Shown here piece after piece: positions 5,775 to 62,907 of a stretch of DNA of 64,000 bases. Where the stretch lies: positions 13,209-77,208 of the forward strand of contig CAJWQR010000002.1 of NCBI GenBank assembly GCA_913045195.1, given 5' to 3'. The translations under genes were made by a program, and so were the position numbers. The notes under the pieces are model-generated. The model was not told the origin of the DNA. It saw only the letters and a list, made by a program, of their open reading frames with translations, and searched no databases. Positions within the stretch are counted from its first letter, which is position 1; the number at the start of each line of letters is the position of its first letter. The stretch is from an uncultured Legionellales bacterium. Lineage in GTDB: Bacteria; Pseudomonadota; Gammaproteobacteria; Eutrophobiales; Eutrophobiaceae.

Positions 5775-6152
5775 ATGAAAAAAACAGCAATTAGTTTAGC
5801 TATTCTTCTTTTTGGTACGATGCCAAGCATGGCGTATGAATATCCAACAGAAGAAACCATTCGCTATGCACTCAATTGTATGACGACACTCGGCGGACAA
5901 ACGGATCAGAATCTTTATACTTGTTCATGTCGATACGATTCAATCAGAGAGGTTTTACCCTTCGATGATTATGCAGACGGGAAAACATACGAAAGAAATA
6001 GAGCAATGCCCGGCAAAAAAGGTGGCTTTTTTAGGGATAATGAGCGTGGCGAAGAATTATATGGTGTCTTGGTCAGTGCAAGAGAGCAAGCTGATGAACA
6101 GTGTATCGTCGTGAAACAAGTTCAAATGATAGAACCAACCAGCAGTGAATAG
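5775..6152 (+). CDS. Hypothetical small secreted Cys-containing protein
   Basis: 125 aa with a signal peptide (cleavage near SMA-YE) and 5 Cys residues. No family recognised. Confidence 0.35.
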   Translation: MKKTAISLAILLFGTMPSMAYEYPTEETIRYALNCMTTLGGQTDQNLYTCSCRYDSIREVLPFDDYADGKTYERNRAMPGKKGGFFRDNERGEELYGVLVSAREQADEQCIVVKQVQMIEPTSSE

Positions 6153-6211: not shown

Positions 6212-7072
6212 CTATGAGTCCAAAGATACCTTGTATGTATCACTGAACGCATTCTTTTTGGTATCTGTGCCTTTTACAAGCATAGTCCCTTCTTTTTCAG
6301 GGACGAAGTAGAAGCGTAAGGCAGGGTCCATACTGACAGAAAATGTTAACGATGCTTTAACGATAAGTTTCCCATTGTAGTTGATCTCAATACTATCGAC
6401 AAAAAAAGCGGGCGGTCTTACTCGTGAACCAATTTTTAACGGAGCCATACCAGTAATATTAGGATGACGTATTTTTAACTGCATCAAATTAGGTTTGCCA
6501 AGCACCAAATCGCCTACCACTTTCATTCTCATCTTTCCAAGTAACTTTTTTGACTCTTCGCTACCTGGCGGAGGTGGTGCAGAGCATGCCCCCTTTGCTT
6601 TTATAAAAGATTTTGTCATGTAAAGTTCACCGGTATTTAATTCAGCAATTGCACGTACATAATTATGAGCATCAACACGTATACGCAACGCTAAATCAGC
6701 TTTACCACTATCGGGCGTGAACTCAAAAGCGCCAACCAACGGAATCGGGTTCTTATCAATGAAGATATGCATTTTCTTTATATAGAGATCGTCCGTCTGT
6801 GGAATTTTAGTGTGTACCGAAATTGGAACAAAGCTTGCATCTTCTGCCAAAATCGGGGCTTTCAGTTCAAGAATTGTTTGTTCTGCACCCTCAATGATTT
6901 CTCTATCTTGGAAAAACTGTTTTCTAATATTTTTTTCCCAGGCTTGGTCAGATAAATTCTGTCTCCAAACAGTTGTGTCTCCGGTTGGCCGAAGATTCGC
7001 TGGAGCGACATCAGCTTGCGCAATTGAAGCAATTAGCAAACTAGTAATTACTGCTAAACTATGAATATTCAT
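6212..7072 (-). CDS. SoxY-SoxZ-like fused sulfur-carrier-type protein (quinoprotein-dehydrogenase-associated SoxYZ-like carrier)
   Basis: 286 aa with a signal peptide. The N-terminal half is SoxY-like and ends in a Cys-bearing swinging-arm-type motif (KAKGACSAPPPPG). The C-terminal half is SoxZ-like (IRHPNITGM...PPAFFVDSIEINYNGK). It is divergently placed next to xoxF. Confidence 0.65.
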   Translation of the reverse strand: MNIHSLAVITSLLIASIAQADVAPANLRPTGDTTVWRQNLSDQAWEKNIRKQFFQDREIIEGAEQTILELKAPILAEDASFVPISVHTKIPQTDDLYIKKMHIFIDKNPIPLVGAFEFTPDSGKADLALRIRVDAHNYVRAIAELNTGELYMTKSFIKAKGACSAPPPPGSEESKKLLGKMRMKVVGDLVLGKPNLMQLKIRHPNITGMAPLKIGSRVRPPAFFVDSIEINYNGKLIVKASLTFSVSMDPALRFYFVPEKEGTMLVKGTDTKKNAFSDTYKVSLDS

Positions 7073-7875
7073 AAAAACTCGCTATTATTTTCATACTTTC
7101 ATTCATATCGATTTTTTAATAATGTAGCTCCGATACTCATGATTATTATCAAAACTATTGATTATTACCAATATTTTCGTTATATATATTACACCAAAAT
7201 AAAGATAAAAATGTTTTATTAATTGGTCATTTTAGTAGCAATAATCCTGTAACGCAAAAATACGCAATAAAACCCAATAAAGCTCATAATCCTATGTATA
7301 GATATTGCCCAATATATTGTTTCTTATGGTAAAAAAAGACCTTGCAAGGGGCGGGAAAATTTCCTACACTCGCATCTGAAGTAATGAGTTTGATGAGCCG
7401 ATTAGGGCTGGGTTTTAAGGAATAAAAAACCCTTAAATTCTTCAATAAGAATTAAAGATTTTTCGGCATCAATAGTACTTACATAAAAAAATTGTTTTGA
7501 CATCTATTTTGATGATAACAATAAAAATAGTTGATGTAGTTTTTCTTTCTTAAAGTTTATATTTTTCGAAAGTTATTTGATAAAACTACCTCGATTGAAC
7601 TGTTAGGGAAAATCCTAATTTCACAAATGGGTAATAGGATTGATAAAACTTAAAAGCATGCGTCTTACTGCAAGTTATTTTTCTTTCTCTATGAGAGCGA
7701 TTAGCAAGTCTAGTCTTAAATTATTTATTCCCCTTTCAAAAGTTCAATCAATTTCTTCTCCATTACATTTACCGATTTTTAAAGCTCAATAGTTCTTTAT
7801 GATCTCGAGGAACTGCTGGGTTGTTTATCACATTATGAGATCACACATGATCAACCAATTATAGAGGAGGAGGTC

Positions 7876-9813
7876 ATGAGTAAATTATCATTAAAGAAAT
7901 GGCTCATAGCTATTTTAGCATTAGGGATTTCTGCATCAGTAGTTGCGAATGATGAAGTTCGTAAACTGAATGCTAACCCTAACTATTGGGCTTTTCCTGG
8001 TGGCGACTACAACAACTGGCGTTATACTGAGTTGAATCAAATCAACACAAAAAATGCTAGCAAGTTAGTTACTGCTTGGACTTTTTCAACTGGCCGTTTA
8101 CAAGGTCATGAAGGTGGACCATTAGTATTACCATCAAGCGCAACTGGCTTAGGTGGCGATACTCTTTATATCCATTCTTCATTCCCTAATGACGTTTTTG
8201 CTATCAGTTTGGATACGCTTGAAATCGTTTGGTATTTCGAGCCACAACAAGACGAAGCAGAAACCGTACCTGTAATGTGCTGCGATATTGTTAATCGCGG
8301 TTTAGGTTACAGTATGGGTCAAATTTATCTTCAACAAGCCGACACAACCTTGGTTGCGTTAGACGCTGGTACCGGTAAAGTAAACTGGACAGCAGAGAAT
8401 GGTCGTGATATCGGTTATGGTCCTGCTGCTGGTGATACCAATACCAACGCTCCACACCCAATTAAAGACAAAGTCTTTACTGGTTGTTCAGGTGCTGAGT
8501 TTGGTGTTCGTTGCTGGATGGCTGCTTTCAATGCGAAAGACGGTTCTCTTGCATGGCGTGCATTTAGCATGGGTCCAGACGAAGATATTCGTTTCGACGC
8601 TAACACCACTTCATTGGGCAAGAAAGTTGGCAAAAATTCTTCACTAAATTCTTGGTGTTCGAATGCTGACTGGAAGGCTCCATCTACTGGTCCTAACAAA
8701 TGTAGTGGACTAAGTGATGCATGGAAGTCTGGTGGTGGTTCAACTTGGGGTTGGTGGCCTGCTGACTTCGACGAAAACTTGATGTACTACGGAAATGGTA
8801 ACCCATCTACGTGGAACCCTGTTGTTCGTCCTGGAGACAACAAATGGTCAATGACTATATTCGCTCGTGATATCGATACCGGTGTTGCGCGTTGGGTATA
8901 TCAAATGACTCCACATGATGAGTGGGATTACGATGGTGTTAACGAAATGATCCTAGCTGACATTAAAGTTAAGGGTAAAATGACCAAAGCTTTAGTTCAC
9001 TTTGATCGTAACGGTTATGGATACACCATGAATCGTGTAAACGGTGCTTTACTTGTAGCTGAAAAGTATGACCCAGCTGTTAACTGGTCAACTCACGTTG
9101 ACATGAAGACGGGTTATCCTCAAACGCTTCCACAGTACTCAACTCATTTTAACGGTGAAGACGTAGTTTCAAAGGATATTTGTCCTGCAGCACTTGGTAC
9201 CAAGGATCAGCAGCCTGCTGCTTTCTCTCCACGTACCAATCTGTTCTATGTTCCAACTAACCACGTATGTATGACCTACGAACCAGTAAGTTATGCTGCA
9301 GGTGGTAACCAATACACAGCTGGTGCGGCTTATGTTAACGCTGCTCTAACTATGTATCCTGCTGGTGCTGTTTGCCCAGATTGTCCAAATAATAATAGTC
9401 AAAAGGACAACATGGGTAACTTCATCGCTTGGGATGCAGGTAAAGGTAAAATTGTTTGGAATATTGTCGAACAATGGTCTGTATGGTCTGGTGTTCTTAC
9501 CACAGCTGGCGATGTAGTGTTCTACGGAACTCTTGACGCTTATGCTAAGGCCGTTGATGCGAAGACTGGTAAATTGCTATGGAAGTTCAAAGCTCCATCA
9601 GGCATTATCGGCAACTTCAACTCTTGGGCTCACAAGGGTAAGCAATACGTTGGTGTTCTTTCGGGCATCGGCGGTTGGGCAGGTGCAGTTGTGTCTATTG
9701 AAGGCCTAGCTGCAGCTCCTGATGATGCTGCTCTTGGTGCTGTTGGTGGTTATCGTAAACTTCTCAATTCTTCACGTAATAGTGGCGTATTGATGGTGTT
9801 TAGCCTACCTTAA
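7876..9813 (+). CDS. xoxF: Lanthanide-dependent PQQ methanol dehydrogenase, XoxF type
   Basis: 645 aa with a signal peptide and an 8-bladed PQQ propeller. It carries the XoxF-diagnostic DYDG (WDYDGVNEM) lanthanide-ligand Asp in place of the MxaF Ala, and a vicinal Cys-Cys (VMCCD). Strong RBS GAGGAGGAGG. Confidence 0.9.
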   Translation: MSKLSLKKWLIAILALGISASVVANDEVRKLNANPNYWAFPGGDYNNWRYTELNQINTKNASKLVTAWTFSTGRLQGHEGGPLVLPSSATGLGGDTLYIHSSFPNDVFAISLDTLEIVWYFEPQQDEAETVPVMCCDIVNRGLGYSMGQIYLQQADTTLVALDAGTGKVNWTAENGRDIGYGPAAGDTNTNAPHPIKDKVFTGCSGAEFGVRCWMAAFNAKDGSLAWRAFSMGPDEDIRFDANTTSLGKKVGKNSSLNSWCSNADWKAPSTGPNKCSGLSDAWKSGGGSTWGWWPADFDENLMYYGNGNPSTWNPVVRPGDNKWSMTIFARDIDTGVARWVYQMTPHDEWDYDGVNEMILADIKVKGKMTKALVHFDRNGYGYTMNRVNGALLVAEKYDPAVNWSTHVDMKTGYPQTLPQYSTHFNGEDVVSKDICPAALGTKDQQPAAFSPRTNLFYVPTNHVCMTYEPVSYAAGGNQYTAGAAYVNAALTMYPAGAVCPDCPNNNSQKDNMGNFIAWDAGKGKIVWNIVEQWSVWSGVLTTAGDVVFYGTLDAYAKAVDAKTGKLLWKFKAPSGIIGNFNSWAHKGKQYVGVLSGIGGWAGAVVSIEGLAAAPDDAALGAVGGYRKLLNSSRNSGVLMVFSLP

Positions 9814-9839
9814 GCAATAAACAGACGTAAGTTTGTTAG

Positions 9840-9872
9840 ATCCCTGGTACTTCGGTATCAGGGATTTTTTTT
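9840..9872 (+). terminator. Rho-independent terminator after xoxF (11-bp stem with UUCG tetraloop plus T8)
   Basis: ATCCCTGGTAC-TTCG-GTATCAGGGAT followed by TTTTTTTT. Confidence 0.7.
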
Positions 9873-9982: not shown

Positions 9983-10456
9983 ATGAAGATTAAAGGGGTG
10001 ATTGCAATGATAACAACACGATATATCGGAATAATTTTAAGCGCATTGGTGTATATGCTTCCAAATTTAGTTAATGCGGAAGAGCATATAGTGAATGCTG
10101 CTGCAAGAGAATTTAAGCCTGCTATTATTTATGTTCAGCCAGGCGATACTGTGAAATTTACTAATATGACCTCTCATAATTCTGTGACTTACTTAGTGCC
10201 TGAAGGCGGTACAGGTTGGGGTGAAAAAGGAAAAATGGCTGGCGGAACTTTCATAACACCAGCAATAGATGCAGAAGGTATTTATGGGTATGTTTGTGAA
10301 CCGCATATTGGTTTCGGAATGGTTGGGGTTGTCGTTGTTGGCGGTGTTAGTGCCGATGATAAAGCGGCAATGAAGGAAAGAGCGATGGCAGAGTTACAAG
10401 GCCCTTTTAAAAGACTTATTGGTAAAATTAATAAGATTAAACCGACATTAAAATAA
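9983..10456 (+). CDS. Pseudoazurin (type-1 blue copper protein / cupredoxin)
   Basis: Signal peptide. Contains PGDTVKF...SHN and GIYGYVCEPHIGFGMVGVVVVG, which give the Cu ligands His, Cys, His, Met with pseudoazurin spacing. Confidence 0.75.
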   Translation: MKIKGVIAMITTRYIGIILSALVYMLPNLVNAEEHIVNAAAREFKPAIIYVQPGDTVKFTNMTSHNSVTYLVPEGGTGWGEKGKMAGGTFITPAIDAEGIYGYVCEPHIGFGMVGVVVVGGVSADDKAAMKERAMAELQGPFKRLIGKINKIKPTLK

Positions 10457-10494: not shown

Positions 10495-11355
10495 GTGTAT
10501 GTGGGTTTAAAACATTTTATGAACAGAAGAATATTATTTTTACTACTCACATTAATTGCTAGACCAGTTTTAGCTGATGGCCATTTACCTGATTCAGAAT
10601 ATTTTAAGGTATGCGCTGACCCTTATATGTTGCCCATGTCCAATCAAGACGGCGAAGGATATGAGAATAAAATTGCTGAACTTTTAGCCAACAAGCTGGG
10701 TTTAAAACTAAAGTATGAGTTTTTTCCACAACGCATCGGTTTTATCAGAAATACCCTAAGAGCAGAATCAGATAGCGGGTCAGGTTATAAATGCGATATC
10801 GTTATTAACGTTCCTTCCAGTTTTGAGTTAGCCGCTACAACTGACCCTTATTACACAACATCATACGCGCTTATCTACGCAAAGGGACGTAATTTAGATT
10901 CAGTTACAGACCCGATGATGCTATTAGATGTTGTAAAGACAAGTAAAGATAAAATAAAAATTGGATTAAGTGATATAGGCGCTGCTCAATTATGGGTATT
11001 TTATAATGGATTAATGTCTTATATGACTCCTTATCAAGGGCAGCCAGGAGACCCAAAGGCTAATCCTAATAAAAAACTAATTGATGAAGTTGTAGCAGGT
11101 AATATCGATGCAACTGTTGTTATGGGCCAAGCAGCGGGATATTGGGCAAAACAATACAAAGACAAGGTTGAACTGATTGTATTACCCTTGAAAGATGACC
11201 CGAAAAAGAAGTTACGGCTTACCTATAGTTTTTCGATGGCTGTGCGACACAGAGAAAAAGCCTGGAAAGAAACGATTAATAAATTGATTAAAGAAAATAA
11301 AACAGAGATTGATGATATTTTAATTGATTACAACATACCACTAATAAAGCAGTAG
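10495..11355 (+). CDS. xoxJ: Quinoprotein-dehydrogenase-associated periplasmic binding protein (MxaJ/XoxJ family)
   Basis: PBP type-3-like with the conserved KVCADPYMLPMSNQDGEGYENKIAELLANKLG...YKCDIVI pattern of MxaJ/XoxJ. The real start is probably the internal Met at about 10519 (MNRRILFLLL signal peptide). Confidence 0.65.
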   Translation: MYVGLKHFMNRRILFLLLTLIARPVLADGHLPDSEYFKVCADPYMLPMSNQDGEGYENKIAELLANKLGLKLKYEFFPQRIGFIRNTLRAESDSGSGYKCDIVINVPSSFELAATTDPYYTTSYALIYAKGRNLDSVTDPMMLLDVVKTSKDKIKIGLSDIGAAQLWVFYNGLMSYMTPYQGQPGDPKANPNKKLIDEVVAGNIDATVVMGQAAGYWAKQYKDKVELIVLPLKDDPKKKLRLTYSFSMAVRHREKAWKETINKLIKENKTEIDDILIDYNIPLIKQ

Positions 11356-11365
11356 GATTGAATAT

Positions 11366-12184
11366 ATGAAATTTTTAATGAATTTTTTATTTATTGTGAG
11401 CTTATTATTAACATACTCAGTTGAAATTATTGCAGAAGAGGGTGTTGAAGAGGCGCCAGAAAAATCGAATGTAATAAAGGGCGCAAATGCATTAACCGAA
11501 GAAGAATTAAGTAAGAGTATTGGTCGTTATGGCGAAGTTGATGAAATTCCGGAAGATTTTGAATTTGCATCTGCTGAGAATAAATTATGGTTAGATAATC
11601 ACCTTGGCAATATTACTCAGCCAACAAGCCTATACTATGAGTTTGTTAAATCAGGTACATATGAAGAAGGTTTTAGTGATTCAGTTTATTTAAAAATTCT
11701 AGAATTAAATGATGATGGCACTAAAAACACACTATTGGATTTTTTTACAGCCGAGAGAAAACAAACGATACCAGAAGGCAATACTACACATATAAGAGGT
11801 AACCCGGTACTGGGTATTTATATGAATGGTGATGTCTATGAGATGGCGCGAATGACAGGCGGAAAAGCAAATCGATATCGGTATTTTTTAAAACAAATAA
11901 AAGTTGCACTAAGAGAAACTGCAAAAGTCGAAGCCACGACTTTCAGCTACAATGGAAAAGAATATAAAGGAGAAAAGGTATTCTTCACTCCTTATGTTGG
12001 AGACCCACACCGACGTGATTTTGAAATATTTGCAGATAAATACTATGAAATTATATTTTCTGATGAAATTCCGGGTAAGCTCTACCAAATTACAACGATT
12101 ATTCCTGATAAAAGTAATGAATCGGCAGAGCCTTTGGTTATGGAGACTTTAAGACTGGTTGATGTAAAAAATCAAGATTCTTAA
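11366..12184 (+). CDS. Hypothetical secreted protein
   Basis: 272 aa with a signal peptide and no recognised domain. Co-oriented with xoxF and xoxJ. Confidence 0.35.
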   Translation: MKFLMNFLFIVSLLLTYSVEIIAEEGVEEAPEKSNVIKGANALTEEELSKSIGRYGEVDEIPEDFEFASAENKLWLDNHLGNITQPTSLYYEFVKSGTYEEGFSDSVYLKILELNDDGTKNTLLDFFTAERKQTIPEGNTTHIRGNPVLGIYMNGDVYEMARMTGGKANRYRYFLKQIKVALRETAKVEATTFSYNGKEYKGEKVFFTPYVGDPHRRDFEIFADKYYEIIFSDEIPGKLYQITTIIPDKSNESAEPLVMETLRLVDVKNQDS

Positions 12185-12192
12185 ATATAAAA

Positions 12193-15021
12193 CTATGACC
12201 CGTATAGATATTTAACATCCGACACTCTATTTCCCTTATTTTTATTATTAATCAAATCGCCTGGGCGTTGACCTTTTCGTAATTTTACAGCGCAGTATTT
12301 AAATTCTGGAATTTTTCCAATAGGGTCTAATGCTTCGTTTGTAAGCAGATTAGCCGCTGCCTCATTAAATGAAAATGGCATCATGACAACACCTTTTTGC
12401 ATGCCTTCATCTGCACGTGTTGTCGCTGCAATTTTTCCTCTTCGAGACTCAATGACAAGCATATCCCCAGATTTTAGTGAAAATAATTTAAGATCTTCAG
12501 GATTAATTAATATACATGGCCCTGGTTCGATAGCATCAAGCACTCGTGAATGACGAGTCATTGTTCCGGTGTGCCAATGTTCAAGCTGTCTTCCTGTGAT
12601 AAATACAAATGGGAAATCATTATTGGGAAGTTCAGCAGGTTCCGTGTAATCTGCAGCAATAAAACTTCCCTTTCCGTCTTGAGTTGGAAATATACCATCT
12701 TTAAAAATAATGGGTTCACCAGGGTCGCCAACATTGGTTAATGGGTAGGTGAGTGAGTCAACCTTTTCTAGTCTTTCCCAGGTAATTCCAGCCATACTTG
12801 GTGTCGCAACCCTTATCTCATTAAATACATCTTTTGTAGCCTTATAATTCCAATTAAGACCCATACGATTAGCAATTTCTTGAATGATCCATAAATCTTG
12901 TTTTGCCTCACCAGGTGGCTCAACAGCTTGCCTTCCTAATTGAACACGTCGATCAGTATTTGTAAACGTGCCATCTTTTTCAGGAAATGCAGAAGCAGGT
13001 AATATTACATCGGCATAACCACATGTTTCCGTAAAGAAGATATCTTGAACAACCATATGATCAAGTTTTGAGAGTGCATTTCTAGCGTGATTCAGATTAG
13101 GATCAGACATTGCTGGATTCTCACCCATGACATAAAGCCCATTAATATCTTTGTTGTAAATCGCGTGCATAATTTCCACAATTGTTTTTCCATTATTTGG
13201 GTCTAGTTTTTGACCCCAAAGTTTTTCAAATTTCTTTCTAATTGTAGAATCAGTAACAGGTTGGTAGTCGGGGTAGACCATAGGAATTAAACCTACATCA
13301 GACGCTCCTTGAACATTATTTTGTCCTCGTAAGGGATGTAGCCCCGTACTTTCACGACCAATTTGTCCGGTCATCAGCGCAAGTGAAATTAAACAGCGTG
13401 CATTATCAGTACCATGAATATGTTGGGATATACCCATACCCCAAAATATAATTGATGACCCTGATGTTGCATAAAGTCGAGCGACTTCCTTAATTACATT
13501 TACATCAATTCCACAAATCGGAGATACTTTTTCAGGTGAATAATTTTTAACTGTTTCAATAATTTTTTCAAAGCCATTGGTATGTTCATCAATGAATTTT
13601 TTATTGTGTAAGTTTTCATTGATAATAACGTGCATCATTGCATTTAGTAAAAGCACATCTGTGCCTGGTCGTAATTGTAAGAAATGACTTGAGTGCAGGG
13701 CAATATCAGAGTTATAGGGCTCAATAATAATAAGCTTGCTACCGCGTTCAGATGCATTTTTTAAAAATGTTGCAGCTACTGGATGATTTTCGTGCGGTCT
13801 TGCACCAATAACAATAATAACGTCAGCGTATGAACCGTCTGAAACTTGATTTGATACAGCCCCCGAGCCAATAGTTTCTAGCAAAGCAGCAACAGATGAA
13901 GCATGGCATAATCTTGTACAGTGATCGACGTTATTTGTTCCAAAACCTGATCTAACTAATTTCTGCACTAAATAAGCTTCTTCATTACTTCCTTTAGCAC
14001 AACCAAAACCCGCAAGAGATTGCGAGCTTTTATTATTTTTAATTTTATTAAAACCTTCAGCTGCAAAATTTAATGCTTCATCCCATGTTACCTCACGAAA
14101 AAACTTATGCATATTTTCACGCGTAACTAATTCGGATGTTTTTTTAGAATTTTCTCGCCTAATCATTGGTTTCTTTAAACGATCAGGGTGATGGATATAA
14201 TCAAATCCATAGCGTCCTTTAACGCATAATCGACTTTTATTCGCAGGACCATCTCTACCATCCACATATTGAATGCGATTATTTTTTATATTAAACGAGA
14301 GCAAGCAGCCAACACCACAATAAGGACAAACAGAATCAACTTTTTTATCAGTTTTGACCAAACCAACATTTTTTGCAGGCATTAGTGCACCTGTTGGACA
14401 GGCTTGGACGCATTCACCGCAGGCCACACAGGTACTTTCGCCCATAGGCGCATCCATATCAAAAACAATCTTTGAATGTTTGCCTCGAAAAGCATAACCA
14501 ATAACATCATTTACTTGTTCTTCACGGCATGCGCGTACGCAACGGGTACATTGAATACAGGCGTCGAGATTTACAGCAATTGCAGGATGTGACACATCAT
14601 TACGGATTTTCTCTCTTTCTTCGAAACGAGGATTGTAAAGGGAAAGTTTTTCTGCCCAGTGATCTAGCTCTGAATTAATTTTATAGGGTGACTTTCCTTG
14701 TTGTGGCATGTCTGAAAGCAGTAACTCTAATACCATTTTTTGAGATAAACGAGCTCTCTTATTTGCGCTATTAACCTTCATGCCTTCAGTTGGTTTTCGA
14801 CAGCATGATGGTGCTAGAACACGTTCACCTTCAATTTCAACAACACAGGCACGACAATTACCATCAGAGCGATATCCGTTCTTATAACAAAGATGAGGGA
14901 TTTCTACATTATTGCGTTTAGCAGCTTGGAGAATTGTTTCATCACCAAAAGAGGTGATTTCTTTATTGTCTAAACTAAAGCTTATTATTGTTTCGTTTTC
15001 TTGTTCTGGGTTGGCGGCCAC
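12193..15021 (-). CDS. fdsA: NAD-dependent formate dehydrogenase alpha subunit (molybdopterin, FdsA)
   Basis: 942 aa. N-terminal 2Fe-2S and 4Fe-4S NuoG-like domains (HLCY...CRACVVE; CIQCTRCVRAC). Then a molybdopterin oxidoreductase domain and a C-terminal MGD-binding domain. GTG start; overlaps fdsB by 37 nt. Confidence 0.9.
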   Translation of the reverse strand: MAANPEQENETIISFSLDNKEITSFGDETILQAAKRNNVEIPHLCYKNGYRSDGNCRACVVEIEGERVLAPSCCRKPTEGMKVNSANKRARLSQKMVLELLLSDMPQQGKSPYKINSELDHWAEKLSLYNPRFEEREKIRNDVSHPAIAVNLDACIQCTRCVRACREEQVNDVIGYAFRGKHSKIVFDMDAPMGESTCVACGECVQACPTGALMPAKNVGLVKTDKKVDSVCPYCGVGCLLSFNIKNNRIQYVDGRDGPANKSRLCVKGRYGFDYIHHPDRLKKPMIRRENSKKTSELVTRENMHKFFREVTWDEALNFAAEGFNKIKNNKSSQSLAGFGCAKGSNEEAYLVQKLVRSGFGTNNVDHCTRLCHASSVAALLETIGSGAVSNQVSDGSYADVIIVIGARPHENHPVAATFLKNASERGSKLIIIEPYNSDIALHSSHFLQLRPGTDVLLLNAMMHVIINENLHNKKFIDEHTNGFEKIIETVKNYSPEKVSPICGIDVNVIKEVARLYATSGSSIIFWGMGISQHIHGTDNARCLISLALMTGQIGRESTGLHPLRGQNNVQGASDVGLIPMVYPDYQPVTDSTIRKKFEKLWGQKLDPNNGKTIVEIMHAIYNKDINGLYVMGENPAMSDPNLNHARNALSKLDHMVVQDIFFTETCGYADVILPASAFPEKDGTFTNTDRRVQLGRQAVEPPGEAKQDLWIIQEIANRMGLNWNYKATKDVFNEIRVATPSMAGITWERLEKVDSLTYPLTNVGDPGEPIIFKDGIFPTQDGKGSFIAADYTEPAELPNNDFPFVFITGRQLEHWHTGTMTRHSRVLDAIEPGPCILINPEDLKLFSLKSGDMLVIESRRGKIAATTRADEGMQKGVVMMPFSFNEAAANLLTNEALDPIGKIPEFKYCAVKLRKGQRPGDLINNKNKGNRVSDVKYLYGS

Positions 15022-16688
15022 TTTTCAAATTCCTCAGGAAAATATCTAATCGCACATCTAACTGGGTTTGGCGCCGCCTGCCCTAAACCACATATTGATG
15101 CATCACACATCGCGATAGAAAGTTCTTCTAATAAGTCTTTATCCCATTCCTCTTTTTCCATCAATTGTATCGCTTTTGATGTCCCAACGCGACAAGGAGT
15201 GCATTGGCCGCATGATTCATGCTCAAAAAAGCGCATTGAATTAAGGGCCAGCCCTTTAACTTTGTCTTTATCAGAAAGCACGATTATAGCTGCTGAACCA
15301 ATAAAACAGCCATGTTTTTGTAATGTATCAAAGTCCAATGGCTCATCTCCAAGCGATGCTGGCAAAATTCCGCCCGATGCTCCGCCGGGGTAATAGCCAT
15401 AAAATTTCTGACCATCAAGCATTCCGTCACAATATTCATCTATTAGCTCTTTTATACTGATGCCCGCAGGAGCCAGATGGACTCCAGGTTTTTTAACACG
15501 CCCGCTAACTGAAAATGAGCGGAGACCTTTTCGTTCACGACGACCATTAGATGAAAACCAATTTGGACCTTTTTCAATAATATCTCTAATCCAATGCAGG
15601 GTTTCCATATTCTGTTCTAGAGTAGGGCGTCCAAAAAGTCCAACTTCAGCAACATAGGGAGGACGTAAACGAGGCATACCAGGTTTTCCTTCGATAGATT
15701 CAATCATCGCAGATTCTTCACCACATATGTAAGCCCCTGCTCCTCTTCTTAAATGTATTGTTGGTAGTTTACATGGAGGCATCGTTTTAATTTTATCTAA
15801 TTCTTTTTCTAACAACATCCTGCAGCCCGCATATTCATCTCTTAGATAAATATAAATATCATCTGCTTCAATCGCCCAGTGAGCGATTAGCGTTCCTTCA
15901 ATAAAACGATGCGGATCATTTTCAAGGTAATAACGGTCTTTAAAGGTGCCGGGCTCGCCTTCATCAATGTTAATAGCAATCAATTTAGGTGATTTTTTTT
16001 CACTTAAAATGCGCCATTTTTGACCCGTTGGAAAACCCGCACCACCTAAACCTCTTAACGAAGAGTCCTCAAGTAATTTTATTATATCTTCACGTTTATA
16101 TTTTCCGTCAATACAGTCGATAAGTGTTTTATAGCCACCATTATTTTTGTAAGCATCATAATCAATATAAGATTTAGGTAGTGAGTCCGATAATTTATTT
16201 TTACTAAGCGCAGAAAGAACAGTTTTTACCTCAGCATGTTCTACGGGGTATGTTCCAGTAAGAGCAACCGGTGCCGCAGCACATCTTCCAACACAGGGAA
16301 CAGGTTGAACGCGAATTGTTTTTGAATCTGTTGCTAATTTTAATTCCTTTATTAATTTCTTAGCACCAAACATTTCACAAGTAACCGATTCACAAACACG
16401 TATAGTAATATCTGGAGGAGGAGCTTCTTTTTCATTTATGACATCGAAGTGATGATAAAAAGTTGCTGTTTCATAAACTGCTGCCATAGATAAATTCATT
16501 ATTTTTGCAAGCGCCATAATATGACGACTTGATATGTGGTGATAAGTGTCTTGGATTTTATGCAGGTGTTCTATAAGCATATCTCTCTTAATAGACTCAC
16601 TATCAATTAGTTTTTCTAATTGAGAAATACAATTTTTGTCTATGACTCGACCGGAGATACGACCTTTTTTTCCACGAGTTCTTTTCAT
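14985..16688 (-). CDS. fdsB: Formate dehydrogenase diaphorase subunit, fused FdsG (NuoE-like) + FdsB (NuoF-like)
   Basis: 567 aa. N-terminal thioredoxin-like 2Fe-2S domain (CESVTCEM...CVGRCAAAP). Then a NuoF-like NAD/FMN/4Fe-4S domain (GLRGLGGAGFPTG; ESCGQCTPCR). Confidence 0.85.
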   Translation of the reverse strand: MKRTRGKKGRISGRVIDKNCISQLEKLIDSESIKRDMLIEHLHKIQDTYHHISSRHIMALAKIMNLSMAAVYETATFYHHFDVINEKEAPPPDITIRVCESVTCEMFGAKKLIKELKLATDSKTIRVQPVPCVGRCAAAPVALTGTYPVEHAEVKTVLSALSKNKLSDSLPKSYIDYDAYKNNGGYKTLIDCIDGKYKREDIIKLLEDSSLRGLGGAGFPTGQKWRILSEKKSPKLIAINIDEGEPGTFKDRYYLENDPHRFIEGTLIAHWAIEADDIYIYLRDEYAGCRMLLEKELDKIKTMPPCKLPTIHLRRGAGAYICGEESAMIESIEGKPGMPRLRPPYVAEVGLFGRPTLEQNMETLHWIRDIIEKGPNWFSSNGRRERKGLRSFSVSGRVKKPGVHLAPAGISIKELIDEYCDGMLDGQKFYGYYPGGASGGILPASLGDEPLDFDTLQKHGCFIGSAAIIVLSDKDKVKGLALNSMRFFEHESCGQCTPCRVGTSKAIQLMEKEEWDKDLLEELSIAMCDASICGLGQAAPNPVRCAIRYFPEEFEKWPPTQNKKTKQ

Positions 16689-42907: not shown

Positions 42908-44038
42908 ATGAAAATTCCATCAACGAATAAAAAAATAATTACATTAATTTTTCTATTTTCTCTTTTTAATTTTGTTTTTGCCGATGAGATTTATAGATCG
43001 GAAAAACATTCATTCTCAATCGAGACAGTAGTTGATGGATTAGAGTACCCGTGGTCAATGGAATTTGCTTCTGACGGAAAAATATTGATTACAGAACGTC
43101 CTGGCAGATTAAGAATCTTTGAGAATGGCGAATTGTCTGCCCCAGTAAAAGGGTTACCTAAAATCAAGAGCGAGGGACAAGGAGGGTTGCTAGATATTGC
43201 ACTCGATGCTGATTTTATCAATAACAAGATTCTTTTTCTTTCGTATACCGCTGGAAATTTTTCAGGAATTGGTACGGAGGTATCTTCAGCAAAATTAGTT
43301 AATAATCAACTGAGAGAACTCAAGCTTTTGTTCAAGGCTTTGCCAAAATCAAGGGGTGGCCGTCACTTTGGCTCACGTCTTTTGTTAACAAATGATAATA
43401 GTCTTTATATAACTTTGGGCGATCGCGGTGAAATGAAACGTGCTCAAAACATCAATGATCATGCAGGTTCGCTAATTCGAATTGGTAAAGACGGCGAAAT
43501 CCCTAACGATAATCCTTTTATTAAACGCTCAGACGCAAAAAAAGAAATCTATACTTATGGGAATCGTAATATTCAAGGTATAGCTTTAAATCCAGCGACA
43601 CATGATATTTGGACGGTTGAGCATGGCCCGCAAGGCGGAGATGAGCTTAATTTAATGAAGTCTGGCACTAATTATGGTTGGCCGGTTATCACTTATGGTG
43701 TTAATTATGGCACTGGCACCCAGATTGGCGAAGGAACTCATAAGGACGGAATGGTTCAACCTGTTTATTATTGGATACCTTCAATTGCGACATCAAGCCT
43801 ACTATTTTATAGCGGTAAAAAATTTCCCAACTGGAAGGAGAATATTTTTGTTAGTTCTTTAAAATTTGGCCAACTAGCCAGACTTGTAATGACTGACAAT
43901 ATTGTAATGATAGAGGAAAGACTGATAAATGGCGCTTTTGGCCGAATCAGAGAGATAAAAGAGGGGCCTGATGGGCTACTTTATATTCTTATAGACGACG
44001 CAAACGGTAAAATACTAAAACTTAAACCTGTTGAATAA
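42908..44038 (+). CDS. PQQ-dependent soluble sugar (glucose/sorbosone) dehydrogenase
   Basis: 376 aa with a signal peptide and the sGDH-family motifs (GLEYPWSMEF, HFGSRL, EHGPQGGDELN, NYGWPVITYG). Confidence 0.8.
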   Translation: MKIPSTNKKIITLIFLFSLFNFVFADEIYRSEKHSFSIETVVDGLEYPWSMEFASDGKILITERPGRLRIFENGELSAPVKGLPKIKSEGQGGLLDIALDADFINNKILFLSYTAGNFSGIGTEVSSAKLVNNQLRELKLLFKALPKSRGGRHFGSRLLLTNDNSLYITLGDRGEMKRAQNINDHAGSLIRIGKDGEIPNDNPFIKRSDAKKEIYTYGNRNIQGIALNPATHDIWTVEHGPQGGDELNLMKSGTNYGWPVITYGVNYGTGTQIGEGTHKDGMVQPVYYWIPSIATSSLLFYSGKKFPNWKENIFVSSLKFGQLARLVMTDNIVMIEERLINGAFGRIREIKEGPDGLLYILIDDANGKILKLKPVE

Positions 44039-60837: not shown

Positions 60838-62907
60838 ATGTCGTCTCCAAGTTATTTTGTTTTATTTATATTCGTATATTTTATTTCTTATAATACTTTT
60901 GCTGTGAATCTAAAACGATTTGAAGGGTTGATTGTCAATGGTACAAGATTAAATCAAAATAATATTGAGGATTTACCATTAAATATTTCCATTATAACCG
61001 CTGAAGAAATTAAATTAAGTTCAGCACAAACACTCCCCGAGTTACTTTCACAGGAACCAGGTATTCAGAAAAGTAGTCAATTTGGTAATCATGCCGTTAG
61101 AAGCGATATTGACATTCGGGGGTTTGGAGCAAGAGGCACTCAAAATACGTTAATTTTATTGGATGGCAAACGTCTTAACGATAATGATCAATCGACAATT
61201 AATTTTAGTGCCATACCGATGGAGAATATTGAGAGAATAGAGATTATAAAAAGTGCAGGCGGTGTGCTCTACGGCGATGGCGCAGTAGGTGGCGCTATTA
61301 ATATCATTACCAAAACACCATCTTATAAAACTAAGAAATATTTAATTGAGCAAAGAGTGGGTTCGTACGATTCAATCAAGACAGATGTGGCAGCTGAATA
61401 CAGTAACGAGAAAATTTCACTTAATCTCTTTAGTAATCTTATTCATTCAGATGGTTATCGAGTTAATAATAAATTAGAGCAACGGTCTTTATCTACAAAT
61501 TTCAGTTATTTTATTAGCAATACAGAAATATTTCTAAAATTTGGAATATCTGAGCAAAATTTAAGACTTCCTGGTGATAGGGCGGTTAATTTTGTTACAG
61601 GTGTAGATGAATTTTCTTCTGATAGGAAAGGAACAGATGACCCGTTTGATTTTGCTATCGAAGTGGGATCTTTCTTAACGTTAGGCTTCATACATTCTTT
61701 TGCAGATAATATCGAATTACTAGTAGATGGCGGATATAAAACCAAAGAAAGCGATATTTTTGTAGAGAATAGCCAAGAATTTCGAAATACAAATCATGCA
61801 AATCTATATTTTAGCCCCCAGCTAAAATGGAAATTTGACTTATTTCATAGTGAACACAATATTGATATAGGCTTTGATCTTTACCATTATCAGTTTGATT
61901 TAGATATCGAAAATACCACCGCAGCTGATACAAATCATGTGATAGTTCAACCACAGCATAGACTTGATATCGAACAGGAAAACTATTCATTTTATTTAAA
62001 TGATTTTGTCAATATAAACCCTAACACTTCATTCCAGGTAGGAGCTCGTATACAACATAGCAATGTAGATGCATTTGATCAGTTTGATTCGACTGCTAGA
62101 ACTGCTGGTTTCGCGAGCAGCCAAAGGCCTTCACTTAATAAATCGGACAAAGGGTATATGGCTAACTTTGGAATTAAACAGCGGTTTAATCGAAATATTT
62201 CTGGCTATGTAACAACAGGTCAAAGTATGCGTTTTGCAAATAATGATGATTTTAATCAATTAGACGCAACTTTTGCGCCTAGTTTTTCTAATATAAAACC
62301 ACAGCGCGGCAGATATTTTGATGGTGGGGTTATATATTCTAGCGAATATCTTAATACTTCGCTGAGCGTATATTTAATGGAAATGACAAATCAAATTGAT
62401 TTTGATCCAGCACGTTCTACAAATAGAAATTTTGAACCAATTAAAAGAGAGGGGCTAGAGTATAGTATTTTACTTAAACCCACTGACGAAATTACAACAA
62501 ATTTTAATTATGCCTTAACTAAAGCAGTTTTTGATGAAGGATTAAATAAAGGCAATGACGTTCCACTTGTTGCGAAACATACAGCAAATTTTATTTTTAA
62601 TTATAATCTGTTTAGGAGTATGAATTTATCGGCAACATGGAATTATGTTGGAGATAAAGTTTTTGATAATGATCAGGATAATACATTTTTTGCCAAAATT
62701 CCTTCGCACTCGTCCATTGATATGAAATTGGGTTATGAGCGAGGTAATTTTGATGTAAATTTTTCAGTTAACAATTTGTTAAATAAAGAATATTTCGAGA
62801 CCGGAACCACTAATAGCCTGCTTTTTGATACCGCACATACGCGATTTAATGCATCACCCATGCCAGAGAGAAACTTTTCATTTACAATACGATATAAGTT
62901 TGACTAA
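60838..62907 (+). CDS. TonB-dependent outer-membrane receptor (BtuB-like, B12-riboswitch controlled)
   Basis: 689 aa with a signal peptide, a TonB-box / plug domain (DLPLNISIITAEEI) and a 22-strand barrel ending in the terminal aromatic ...IRYKFD. Confidence 0.8.
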   Translation: MSSPSYFVLFIFVYFISYNTFAVNLKRFEGLIVNGTRLNQNNIEDLPLNISIITAEEIKLSSAQTLPELLSQEPGIQKSSQFGNHAVRSDIDIRGFGARGTQNTLILLDGKRLNDNDQSTINFSAIPMENIERIEIIKSAGGVLYGDGAVGGAINIITKTPSYKTKKYLIEQRVGSYDSIKTDVAAEYSNEKISLNLFSNLIHSDGYRVNNKLEQRSLSTNFSYFISNTEIFLKFGISEQNLRLPGDRAVNFVTGVDEFSSDRKGTDDPFDFAIEVGSFLTLGFIHSFADNIELLVDGGYKTKESDIFVENSQEFRNTNHANLYFSPQLKWKFDLFHSEHNIDIGFDLYHYQFDLDIENTTAADTNHVIVQPQHRLDIEQENYSFYLNDFVNINPNTSFQVGARIQHSNVDAFDQFDSTARTAGFASSQRPSLNKSDKGYMANFGIKQRFNRNISGYVTTGQSMRFANNDDFNQLDATFAPSFSNIKPQRGRYFDGGVIYSSEYLNTSLSVYLMEMTNQIDFDPARSTNRNFEPIKREGLEYSILLKPTDEITTNFNYALTKAVFDEGLNKGNDVPLVAKHTANFIFNYNLFRSMNLSATWNYVGDKVFDNDQDNTFFAKIPSHSSIDMKLGYERGNFDVNFSVNNLLNKEYFETGTTNSLLFDTAHTRFNASPMPERNFSFTIRYKFD

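What the first reader, a model, noticed from the sequence alone, without database searches (positions are those of the whole stretch)
6212..7072. SoxY-SoxZ fusion carrier protein divergently paired with xoxF
The N-terminal half is SoxY-like and ends in a Cys-containing GAC-type arm (KAKGACSAPPPPG). The C-terminal half is SoxZ-like (IRHPNITGM...PPAFFVD...NYNGK). There are no other sox genes in the window. A periplasmic thiol carrier dedicated to a quinoprotein alcohol dehydrogenase has no established function. It could shuttle an aldehyde or formaldehyde adduct, a persulfide, or a metal.
Basis: partly seen in the sequence, partly recalled or inferred. Interest (0 to 1): 0.55.

Follow-up and report, generated by a model that had tools for sequence, protein, structure and literature searches.

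The report
Known SoxYZ-like carrier beside xoxF
The gene is a real periplasmic one-cysteine carrier made of fused SoxY-like and SoxZ-like domains next to a lanthanide methanol dehydrogenase, but this family and its link to such dehydrogenases are already curated and published, and only its biochemical job is still unknown.

Summary
ORF 6212-7072(-) encodes a 286-aa exported protein with a SoxY-like half (residues 51-163) and a SoxZ-like half (192-280). Its only cysteine, C163, lies in the arm KAKGACSAPPPPG. It diverges from a genuine lanthanide-type xoxF (7876-9813) across an 803-bp gap, and the window holds no other sox genes.

It is not new. [quoted passage not shown] The same family is PP_2677 in the Pseudomonas putida ped cluster. 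A 2024 paper describes "SoxYZ-S4" clustered with xoxF and fdhAB, as here. No experiment has established a function.

The Cys is conserved in 109 of 111 divergent representatives. In 116 genomes the gene usually follows a SoxH-like zinc hydrolase (92 loci), which this window lacks. It also neighbours lanthanide-type PQQ dehydrogenases, a MoxJ-like protein and two unannotated periplasmic families that are present here.

My best guess (about 0.35-0.4) is that C163 covalently captures reactive sulfur species and so keeps the dehydrogenase active. An aldehyde relay, enzyme maturation and metal binding remain possible. Side observation: a cupredoxin sits where xoxG normally lies.

The parts
6212..7072 (-). 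Gene for the SoxY-SoxZ fusion carrier (286 aa), a member of TIGR04557
   Evidence: ORF. TIGR04557 at 220.7 bits against a cutoff of 140. Pfam SoxY plus SoxZ. AF2 pLDDT 92.5 with SoxY/SoxZ fold hits.
7013..7072 (-). N-terminal Sec-type signal peptide (about residues 1-20, MNIHSLAVITSLLIASIAQA|DV)
   Evidence: By inspection of the translation. Helix 3-17 in the model. No dedicated predictor was run. There is no twin-arginine motif.
6584..6922 (-). SoxY-like domain (residues 51-163)
   Evidence: Pfam PF13501, E 4.7e-31. PDB SoxY hits.
6563..6601 (-). Carrier arm KAKGACSAPPPPG. The C163 codon is at 6584-6586. C163 is the only Cys in the protein.
   Evidence: Invariant in 18 close homologues. Cys present in 109 of 111 divergent representatives, family consensus K-A-[S/A]-G-G-C-S-A-P. 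pLDDT falls to about 69 here, so the loop is probably flexible.
6233..6499 (-). SoxZ-like domain (residues 192-280) with near-invariant H203-P204-N205 and G208
   Evidence: Pfam PF08770, E 3.3e-16. Conservation. Fold hits to SoxZ.
7073..7875 (.). 803-bp divergent intergenic region with conserved blocks at 7337-7385 (palindrome GGAAAATTTCC at 7354-7364), 7606-7641 (inverted repeat ATCCTA..TAGGAT) and 7772-7875 (directly upstream of xoxF)
   Evidence: Alignment with relatives whose proteins are about 80% identical. No credible ORF, no Rfam hit, no MBL remnant. The leader is not unusually structured, z -1.0.
7876..9813 (+). xoxF, lanthanide-type PQQ methanol dehydrogenase (645 aa)
   Evidence: TIGR03075 at 615.9 bits. 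Best PDB hits 6dam and 6oc5, both XoxF. WDYDG and MCCD motifs. Terminator-like hairpin at 9838-9867.
9983..10456 (+). Pseudoazurin-like type-1 copper protein in the position usually held by xoxG
   Evidence: Pfam Copper-bind, E 1.2e-10. Pseudoazurin model at 65.5 bits, below its cutoff. C-x-P-H-x3-G-M ligand motif by inspection. Conserved next to xoxF in relatives. No CXXCH anywhere in the window.
10495..11355 (+). MoxJ-like periplasmic binding protein (TIGR03871, quinoprotein dehydrogenase-associated)
   Evidence: 229.1 bits against a cutoff of 212. Found in 32 of 116 family loci.
11366..12184 (+). ORF272: unannotated conserved periplasmic partner
   Evidence: No Pfam or NCBIfam hit. Homologues in 30 of 116 family loci. 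Alignment A5. No PDB relative.
5775..6152 (+). ORF125: unannotated small periplasmic protein with four invariant Cys, convergent with the carrier gene
   Evidence: Homologues adjacent to the carrier gene in 66 of 116 loci. Invariant C35, C50, C52 and C110. No family, PDB or fold match. AF2 predicts a four-helix protein, pLDDT 81.
12193..16688 (-). Formate dehydrogenase alpha and beta subunits (fdhAB), the synteny partner reported for the SoxYZ-S4 clade
   Evidence: Translations. Pfam domains of the orthologues in L001. Synteny described in PMC11237559.

Best explanation
[quoted passage not shown] It is a SoxY-like domain fused to a SoxZ-like domain. Its single cysteine, C163, sits on a flexible loop at the junction between the two domains. 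The protein belongs to a conserved accessory module of lanthanide-type PQQ alcohol/methanol dehydrogenases. In this window the module comprises xoxF, a cupredoxin, a MoxJ-like protein, ORF272 and ORF125. All of that is shown here.

The mechanism is inferred by homology with SoxYZ. I propose that the C163 thiolate forms a covalent adduct with a small reactive species in the periplasm, and that the free thiol is then regenerated. In most genomes regeneration would fall to the SoxH-like di-zinc hydrolase encoded just upstream. That hydrolase is absent from this window, so here the step would need another route, possibly the four-Cys ORF125 or general Dsb proteins.

The cargo I consider most likely (probability about 0.35-0.4) is a reactive sulfur species such as persulfide/sulfane sulfur, thiosulfate or sulfite. 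Under this reading the carrier scavenges nucleophilic sulfur that would otherwise attack PQQ or the strained vicinal disulfide of the Ln-dependent dehydrogenase. It would be a protective or servicing factor, not part of the main carbon flux.
For: Family membership: TIGR04557 at 220.7 bits against a cutoff of 140, the two domains, and the fold.

Carrier Cys: it is the only Cys in the protein. It is invariant in close homologues and present in 109 of 111 divergent representatives within a SoxY-like G-G-C motif.

Module membership: in 116 confirmed genome loci the seeded counts are MBL 92, ORF125 66, PQQ dehydrogenase 39, MoxJ2 32 and ORF272 30. These are lower bounds because the tiles are short. 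All 32 neighbouring dehydrogenases whose active-site stretch was captured carry the Ln-type D-x-D signature. The partner hydrolase is TIGR04559, 'quinoprotein relay system zinc metallohydrolase 2'.

Sulfur cargo: every recognisable partner comes from the sulfur toolkit. These are SoxH-like, rhodanese-like and thioredoxin-like proteins (PMC12997753) and YeeE-like transporters (PMC11582611). Some family members sit directly beside a bona fide soxC: P0121, 51% identical with the same GAC arm, is followed by TIGR04555 at 569 bits plus a cytochrome, and L058 reads MBL>SoxYZ>SoxC. Methylophaga thiooxydans has soxCDH plus two soxYZ fusions but no soxAB (PMC6548844). Thiosulfate inhibits growth of H. 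denitrificans on methanol but not on formate, and a protective role for SoxYZ-S4 has been proposed (PMC11237559; PMC12997753).

Independence from the hydrolase: marine phages carry stand-alone copies that pass the family cutoff, which fits a protein that can act without it.
Against: No experiment supports any cargo. RB-TnSeq in P. putida showed minimal phenotype, although it was done without rare earths (PMC12997753).

This window has no SoxH-like hydrolase, no SoxC and no rhodanese of the PQQ-associated type. A sulfur adduct here would therefore have no obvious removal route.

The source is a pelagic, oxic-ocean organism (Tara contigs), where thiosulfate and sulfide are scarce.

Ca-dependent enzymes have the same PQQ and the same vicinal disulfide but are reported to lack the trio of partners. 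A generic 'protect PQQ' role does not explain that.

SoxC adjacency is rare: 1 of 116 loci plus P0121.

The Cys loop is tethered at both ends. It is not a free C-terminal swinging arm like that of SoxY.
Confidence: 0.4

Rival explanations
1. Aldehyde relay. C163 traps the dehydrogenase product (formaldehyde here) as a hemithioacetal. The adduct is oxidised to a thioester. An MBL-fold hydrolase, acting like glyoxalase II, releases formate, which FdhAB then oxidises. This would be a protein-bound periplasmic analogue of the glutathione-dependent formaldehyde pathway.
For: The family associates specifically with Ln-type dehydrogenases (PMC12997753). From established knowledge, several of these enzymes also oxidise aldehydes. 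The SoxYZ-S4 clade, like this window, is syntenic with fdhAB. The partner is an MBL-fold hydrolase, a superfamily that includes thioesterases, and it shows a weak GloB hit at E 2.4e-6. NCBIfam's own name, 'relay system', implies a handed-over intermediate.
Against: This window has no hydrolase. It does have a full cytoplasmic H4MPT formaldehyde pathway, so a periplasmic relay is not needed. The hydrolase's closest solved relatives are a hydrolytic dehalogenase and class B beta-lactamases, not thioesterases. A stoichiometric protein carrier is ill suited to the main carbon flux. The Cys loop is tethered at both ends and would have to enter a narrow PQQ active site (inference). The rhodanese-like and SoxC neighbours are not explained.
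Confidence: 0.17
2. Maturation or redox maintenance factor. Together with the four-Cys ORF125 (and thioredoxin-like or rhodanese-like proteins elsewhere), the carrier forms or repairs the vicinal Cys-Cys disulfide of XoxF, or helps insert PQQ or lanthanide.
For: The carrier is adjacent to ORF125, with its four invariant cysteines, in 66 of 116 loci and in this window. It co-occurs with MoxJ-like proteins. The ped review proposes disulfide formation or cofactor stabilisation (PMC12997753). A thioredoxin-like gene lies in the M. extorquens operon. Phage-borne copies could raise the yield of active enzyme.
Against: A one-Cys protein cannot complete a dithiol/disulfide exchange alone. Ca-type enzymes make the same disulfide without these genes. 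ORF125 has no thioredoxin fold or CXXC motif. There is no evidence of physical interaction.
Confidence: 0.15
3. Metal binding or chaperone role. The Cys, together with the conserved His and Asp residues, binds a metal such as Cu, Zn or a lanthanide for the dehydrogenase or its electron acceptor.
For: The SoxY fold resembles the metal-binding domain of superoxide reductase (hits 4brj, 4brv and 4bk8). Invariant H203, D106, N108 and D270 are available. Cupredoxin genes lie next to family members here and in L168. The family tracks lanthanide-type enzymes.
Against: Lanthanides prefer oxygen ligands, not thiolates (established chemistry). A cupredoxin neighbour is rare across the family, 1 of 116 loci. 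The retained G-G-C arm is the hallmark of covalent carriage. The sulfur-toolkit partners are unexplained.
Confidence: 0.05
4. It is an ordinary SoxYZ working in thiosulfate oxidation by the Sox pathway.
For: Domain homology to SoxY and SoxZ. JGI annotation of homologues as 'sulfur-oxidizing protein SoxY'.
Against: The scores are far below the equivalog cutoffs: SoxY 73.5 against 125, SoxZ 37.2 against 76. There is no C-terminal GGCGG. No soxXA, soxB or soxCD occurs in the window, and no c-type cytochrome at all. Many organisms carrying the family cannot oxidise thiosulfate (PMC11237559).
Confidence: 0.02

Closest known systems
[quoted passage not shown] Thiodiazotropha, Bathymodiolus methanotroph symbionts and H. 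denitrificans)
   Same: Scores above the curated cutoff. Same fused architecture and same conserved Cys position. Same neighbourhood of Ln-type PQQ dehydrogenase plus MoxJ_2. Same xoxF-fdhAB synteny as reported for S4.
   Different: The arm reads G-A-C instead of G-G-C, seen in 3 of 111 representatives. No SoxH-like hydrolase is adjacent or anywhere in the 64 kb, against 92 of 116 loci. A cupredoxin replaces the c-type cytochrome in the module.
Canonical SoxYZ thiosulfate-oxidation carrier (SoxY TIGR04488 plus SoxZ TIGR04490; PDB 2ox5, 2oxg, 4uwq)
   Same: Both Ig-like folds. A Gly-flanked Cys at the end of the SoxY domain. The HPN/HPM-type motif in the SoxZ half. Periplasmic location.
   Different: One polypeptide rather than a heterodimer. 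The Cys is internal, on a loop that leads into a Pro-rich linker, rather than at a free GGCGG C-terminus. Scores are below both equivalog cutoffs. There is no SoxXA, SoxB or SoxCD. The signal peptide is Sec-like rather than twin-arginine (by inspection).
Viral 'soxYZ' auxiliary metabolic genes of marine phages
   Same: Same family: 7 of 8 tested pass the TIGR04557 cutoff. Same fused architecture and G-G-C arm. No hydrolase alongside, as in this window.
   Different: Only 24-43% identical to the window protein. No close GAC-arm relatives were found on viral contigs. The viral copies have no xoxF or other module genes nearby.

Membership tests
[quoted passage not shown] | Whole-protein score above the curated NCBIfam cutoff (140 bits) | tested here: met
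   220.7 bits, E 1.4e-65, covering profile positions 1-226 of 226.
[quoted passage not shown] | SoxY-like and SoxZ-like domains fused in one polypeptide | tested here: met
   Pfam SoxY 51-163 and SoxZ 192-280. AF2 model with SoxY and SoxZ fold hits.
[quoted passage not shown] | Conserved Cys at the end of the SoxY-like domain (family motif K-A-[S/A]-G-G-C-S-A-P) | tested here: met
   C163 lies in KAKGACSAP. The column is Cys in 109 of 111 representatives. G162A is a rare substitution, 3 of 111.
[quoted passage not shown] | Genomic association with a PQQ-dependent (Ln-type) dehydrogenase and its accessory genes | tested here: met
   xoxF lies 803 bp away, divergent. TIGR03871 MoxJ_2 is in the same module. 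The synteny is conserved in relatives.
[quoted passage not shown] | Adjacent SoxH-like 'quinoprotein relay system' zinc metallohydrolase (TIGR04558/TIGR04559). Typical of the family but not obligatory. | tested here: not met
   No hit at E<=1 in the six-frame translation of the 64 kb, and no remnant in the gap. Present in 92 of 116 other loci. Absent also from L028, L035, L048 and L099.
[quoted passage not shown] | Export to the periplasm | tested here: inconclusive
   The N-terminus MNIHSLAVITSLLIASIAQA|DV looks like a Sec signal peptide, by inspection only. No signal-peptide predictor was available.
Canonical SoxYZ (thiosulfate oxidation carrier) | SoxY equivalog score of at least 125 bits and SoxZ equivalog score of at least 76 bits | tested here: not met
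   73.5 and 37.2 bits.
Canonical SoxYZ (thiosulfate oxidation carrier) | Free C-terminal GGCGG swinging arm on a separate SoxY subunit | tested here: not met
   The Cys is internal (residue 163 of 286), within GACSAPPPPG, and the chain continues into the SoxZ-like domain.
Canonical SoxYZ (thiosulfate oxidation carrier) | Partner enzymes SoxXA, SoxB and (SoxCD) encoded with it | tested here: not met
   No CXXCH motif in any frame of the window. No SoxC. No SoxB-like ORF by inspection. The rest of the genome was not available.
XoxF lanthanide-dependent methanol dehydrogenase (the neighbour) | Methanol/ethanol-family PQQ dehydrogenase, closest to characterised XoxF, with the Ln-coordinating Asp two residues after the catalytic Asp and a vicinal Cys pair | tested here: met
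   TIGR03075 at 615.9 bits against 480. 6dam at 742 bits and 6oc5 at 706 bits, against MxaF at about 500 bits. WDYDG and MCCD are in the translation. The meaning of these motifs comes from established knowledge (Keltjens et al. 2014).
XoxF lanthanide-dependent methanol dehydrogenase (the neighbour) | Dedicated c-type cytochrome xoxG as electron acceptor | tested here: not met
   There is no CXXCH anywhere in the 64 kb. A pseudoazurin-like cupredoxin follows xoxF instead.

The most novel reading that the evidence does not exclude
In this streamlined pelagic methylotroph the accessory system of lanthanide methanol dehydrogenase is stripped to a minimal core. That core is the one-Cys SoxYZ-like carrier, the orphan four-Cys protein ORF125, the orphan ORF272 and a MoxJ-like protein. 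There is no SoxH-like hydrolase, and a blue-copper protein takes the place of cytochrome XoxG. Under this reading the carrier and the two unannotated families form a previously unrecognised periplasmic thiol relay that XoxF needs directly, for example by carrying C1 or sulfur adducts or by resetting its vicinal disulfide. The relay would be a required part of the enzyme system, not an optional detoxifier.
Probability: 0.15. Interest if true: 0.7.

Novelty: already known. Interest (0 to 1): 0.25.

Why it matters
XoxF-type lanthanide methanol dehydrogenases are among the most widespread and most highly expressed enzymes of marine and soil methylotrophy. This carrier family accompanies them in many Proteobacteria and is even carried by marine phages, yet it has no experimentally known function. 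Knowing what C163 carries would show how these enzymes are kept active, or how their toxic products are handled, in the periplasm. It would also correct the routine mis-annotation of these genes, including the viral copies, as sulfur-oxidation 'SoxY'. This particular finding adds no new kind of system. Its value lies in showing a minimal, hydrolase-free version of the module and in pointing to two unannotated partner families.

Tried and rejected
1. The search for related loci with family alignments A2 and A3 failed for lack of a sufficiently conserved stretch. I replaced it with a degenerate DNA pattern for the arm motif.

2. Unbiased single-linkage clustering of neighbouring ORFs was confounded by long spurious ORFs in high-GC genomes. 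I replaced it with seeded profile searches. Because the loci are uncentred 8-kb tiles, the co-occurrence counts are lower bounds. The pattern also selected only G-G-C-arm members.

3. The 803-bp gap was checked for a hidden gene or RNA. It holds no credible ORF, no Rfam family and no decayed MBL gene. The conserved xoxF leader is not unusually structured.

4. No close relatives of the window protein were found on viral contigs. Only distant family members occur there.

5. ORF125 and ORF272 have no Pfam, NCBIfam or PDB sequence match. The ORF125 model has no fold match.

6. The partner hydrolase's nearest solved relatives are a hydrolytic dehalogenase and class B lactamases. That does not indicate which bond it cleaves.

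7. Literature searches for knockout, expression or biochemical data on PP_2677, META1p1703-1705 or the 'relay system' proteins found only genomic descriptions and hypotheses. One search on SoxH and thioesters was uninformative.

8. The canonical Sox role was rejected on scores, arm architecture and the absence of partner enzymes.
Full report
**1. Observation.** Pfam places a SoxY domain at residues 51-163 (E 4.7e-31) and a SoxZ domain at 192-280 (E 3.3e-16). The two halves align separately to solved SoxY chains (4uwq_B, 2nnc) and SoxZ chains (4uwq_C, 1v8h). An AlphaFold2 model built on 52 diverse homologues is confident (pLDDT 92.5, pTM 0.86). Confidence dips to about 69 at residues 161-170, the Cys loop. 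Foldseek matches the model to SoxY chains at target TM 0.78-0.82 and to SoxZ chains at 0.82-0.87. C163, in KAKGACSAPPPPG, is the only cysteine in the protein. The N-terminus looks like a Sec signal peptide; that is by inspection only.

**2. The neighbour and the rest of the window.** The divergent gene 7876..9813(+) is a genuine XoxF. It scores 615.9 bits on TIGR03075. Its best solved relatives are the lanthanide enzymes 6dam (742 bits) and 6oc5 (706 bits), ahead of MxaF at about 500 bits. It has the WDYDG motif with the lanthanide-type Asp and the vicinal MCCD pair (the interpretation of these motifs comes from established knowledge).

Downstream lie a pseudoazurin-like cupredoxin (9983..10456), a MoxJ-like binding protein (TIGR03871, 229 bits against 212), and a 272-aa protein with no family. 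On the other side of the carrier gene, convergent with it, is a 125-aa protein with no family. Formate dehydrogenase genes follow at 12193..16688, and a complete H4MPT formaldehyde-oxidation island at about 18.7-34.4 kb. The organism is therefore a methylotroph.

The claim 'no other sox genes' holds. There is no SoxH-like hydrolase and no SoxC. No CXXCH haem motif occurs in any frame of 70 aa or more across the 64 kb. Nothing resembles SoxB by inspection.

The exact protein recurs on Tara Oceans and other marine metagenome contigs. The whole gene order is conserved in a marine gammaproteobacterial MAG whose carrier is 80% identical.

**3. [quoted passage not shown] It falls well below the equivalog cutoffs for true SoxY (73.5 against 125) and true SoxZ (37.2 against 76). 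NCBI already uses the TIGR04557 name for homologues 68-80% identical in MAGs.

The literature knows the family too.
- A 2026 review of the Pseudomonas ped cluster lists PP_2677 under this name. It says that PP_2666 (rhodanese-like), PP_2677 and PP_2678 (SoxH-like) accompany lanthanide- and PQQ-dependent dehydrogenases, with orthologues META1p1703-1705 near xoxFGJ in M. extorquens. It reports minimal RB-TnSeq phenotypes obtained without rare earths, and offers only hypotheses: disulfide formation or cofactor stabilisation, or protecting PQQ from sulfur nucleophiles (PMC12997753).
- A 2024 study of SoxY diversity describes a fusion clade, 'SoxYZ-S4', clustered with xoxF and fdhAB. The synteny is conserved in lucinid, Kuphus and Bathymodiolus methanotroph symbionts. 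[quoted passage not shown] That is the arrangement seen in this window.
- Work on H. denitrificans notes the same Sox(YZ) fusion plus SoxH beside a PQQ enzyme (PMC11582611).

I found no knockout, expression or biochemical result that assigns a function.

**4. Conservation of the cysteine.** Among 18 close homologues the segment AKGACSAPPP is invariant. In a library clustered at 50% identity the family has 1407 representatives at E<=0.001 and 100 at E<=1e-30. Among 111 full-length representatives 28-60% identical to the query, the column is Cys in 109. The consensus is K-A-[S/A]-G-G-C-S-A-P, which echoes the GGCGG of SoxY. The Ala at position 162 of this protein is rare, 3 of 111. Other invariant positions across 52 diverse members include W45, N108, P109, R132, H203, P204, P250 and D270.

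**5. Genomic context across the family.** A degenerate DNA pattern for the arm motif retrieved 120 loci from named genomes, and 116 encode a family member. They span Alpha-, Beta- and Gammaproteobacteria, including Methylobacterium, Bradyrhizobium, Hyphomicrobium, Methylophaga, Paracoccus, Ruegeria, Variovorax and Ca. Thiodiazotropha.

Seeded profile searches in these uncentred 8-kb tiles give lower-bound counts out of 116 loci:
- SoxH-like metallohydrolase: 92, usually immediately upstream on the same strand
- relative of the 125-aa ORF: 66, usually immediately downstream and convergent
- PQQ dehydrogenase: 39
- MoxJ_2: 32
- relative of the 272-aa ORF: 30
- ABC ATPase: 21
- ABC-2 permease: 13
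- c-type cytochrome: 10

The hydrolase is TIGR04559, 'quinoprotein relay system zinc metallohydrolase 2'. All 32 neighbouring dehydrogenases whose active-site stretch was captured have the lanthanide-type D-x-D signature.

The window matches a minority variant without the hydrolase, also seen in marine loci L028, L035, L048 and L099. The 803-bp gap holds no decayed hydrolase gene, no credible ORF and no known RNA. It does contain conserved blocks, probably regulatory, and the xoxF leader is not unusually structured.

**6. Hints on cargo.** Two results tie family members to real sulfur enzymes. P0121 is the nearest representative outside the window's own cluster: 51% identical, with the same G-A-C arm, and 224.8 bits on TIGR04557. 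It is followed 37 bp downstream by a bona fide soxC (TIGR04555, 569 bits against 420) and a cytochrome. Locus L058 reads hydrolase > carrier > SoxC. Methylophaga thiooxydans is reported to have soxCDH plus two soxYZ fusions but no soxAB (PMC6548844).

Against over-reading this, SoxC adjacency is rare, and the window has none of these enzymes. The hydrolase's closest solved relatives are a Zn-dependent hydrolytic dehalogenase (6uxu) and class B beta-lactamases, which does not show what bond it cleaves. Another G-A-C member, P0126, sits directly after a pseudoazurin-like cupredoxin, echoing the cupredoxin in this window.

**7. Mechanism.**

*Shown.* This is an exported, two-domain, one-Cys protein of a curated family that travels with lanthanide-type PQQ dehydrogenases and their accessory genes.

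*Inferred.* By homology with SoxYZ, C163 carries a covalent adduct, and in most genomes the adjacent hydrolase regenerates the thiol.

*Ranking of cargoes.*
- Reactive sulfur species, with a protective or servicing role for the dehydrogenase: about 0.35-0.4. All recognisable partners are sulfur-toolkit proteins, some members adjoin soxC, and thiosulfate is reported to inhibit methanol but not formate growth in H. denitrificans.
- Aldehyde relay (hemithioacetal to thioester to acid): about 0.17. It is attractive because of the fdhAB synteny and the hydrolase partner. It is weakened by the missing hydrolase here, the presence of a full H4MPT pathway, the tethered loop, and the flux problem for a stoichiometric carrier.
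- Maturation or redox maintenance with the four-Cys ORF125: about 0.15.
- Metal binding: about 0.05.
- A canonical Sox role: effectively excluded.

For this window specifically, any adduct model must explain how the thiol is reset without a hydrolase. ORF125 and general Dsb proteins are candidates, but that is speculation.

**8. Comparison and novelty.** The protein passes every defining test for TIGR04557 that I could run. The typical but non-obligatory hydrolase neighbour is absent. It fails the tests for canonical SoxYZ on scores, free GGCGG arm, separate subunits and partner enzymes.

The finding as stated, a SoxY-SoxZ fusion carrier paired with xoxF and of unknown function, is already known. 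The local peculiarities are minor variants within the known kind: the G-A-C arm, the lack of a hydrolase, and a cupredoxin instead of XoxG.

**9. Side observations.**
- Two conserved partner families, ORF125 and ORF272, have no model in Pfam or NCBIfam and no relative of known structure. ORF125 has four invariant cysteines, and its predicted four-helix fold has no match.
- xoxF is followed by a type-1 copper protein, and the 64 kb contain no c-type cytochrome although they encode the ccm maturation system. The held literature does not describe such a pairing.
- Marine phage contigs carry stand-alone members of this family: 37 of 39 loci, and 7 of 8 tested pass the cutoff. This is already noted in the literature (PMC13500833; PMC11237559).

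**10. Verdict.** Interest is low to moderate. The open question is the biochemical function of the family, and this window does not by itself make that question more testable. It does show a natural minimal version of the module.

Noticed in passing
window 5775-6152 (+): ORF125 is a small exported protein with four invariant cysteines (C35, C50, C52, C110) and a predicted four-helix fold. It has no Pfam, NCBIfam, PDB or fold match and is annotated 'hypothetical' everywhere. Its homologues lie next to the SoxYZ-like carrier gene in 66 of 116 genomes, usually convergent and immediately downstream, as here.
   Followed up: partly
window 11366-12184 (+): ORF272 is an exported protein with a conserved domain of about 190 aa and no family or PDB match. 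Homologues occur in 30 of 116 carrier loci, usually beside ORF125 or the MoxJ-like gene. It was not modelled.
   Followed up: partly
window 9983-10456 (+): A pseudoazurin-like type-1 copper protein (C-x-P-H-x3-G-M ligand motif) directly follows xoxF, where the cytochrome xoxG normally lies. No CXXCH motif exists anywhere in the 64 kb, even though ccmABCEFGHI are present at about 45.7-52.6 kb. The pairing is conserved in relatives (L001-L003, L124, L125), and I found no description of it in the held literature. Another family member (P0126, locus L168) is also directly preceded by such a cupredoxin.
   Followed up: partly
window 7073-7875: The unusually long divergent intergenic region has blocks conserved with a lineage whose proteins are only about 80% identical. 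These are 7337-7385 (palindrome GGAAAATTTCC at 7354-7364, weak sigma-70-like hexamers TTGCAA and TACACT), 7606-7641 (inverted repeat ATCCTA-N17-TAGGAT) and a near-invariant 7772-7875 just upstream of xoxF. They are probably operator or promoter sites. The leader is not unusually structured as RNA.
   Followed up: partly
L166 515-2776; L058 5474-7723: Some TIGR04557 members are followed directly by a bona fide soxC (TIGR04555) and a cytochrome. In L058 the order is SoxH-like hydrolase > carrier > SoxC. So the 'quinoprotein-associated' family also occurs in genuine sulfur-oxidation contexts.
   Followed up: partly
L127-L165 (IMG/VR viral contigs): 37 of 39 viral contigs with about 30% GC carry stand-alone SoxYZ fusion genes. 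They pass the TIGR04557 cutoff in 7 of 8 tested cases and have no dehydrogenase or hydrolase nearby. The phage 'soxYZ' auxiliary genes therefore belong to this family rather than to true SoxY/SoxZ, as recent literature also notes.
   Followed up: partly
window 1-64000 compared with L004-L123: The SoxH-like 'relay system' zinc hydrolase accompanies the carrier in 92 of 116 genomes but is completely absent from this window. It is also absent from the marine loci L028, L035, L048 and L099, which suggests loss in streamlined marine lineages. The rest of this genome could not be checked.
   Followed up: partly
window 42908-44038 (+) and 60838-62907 (+): There is a second PQQ-type enzyme (soluble glucose/sorbosone dehydrogenase family, PF07995, E 2e-123). 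Near the end of the window lies a TonB-dependent receptor followed by a DUF6580 membrane protein. Whether the receptor relates to lanthanide uptake was not examined.
   Followed up: no
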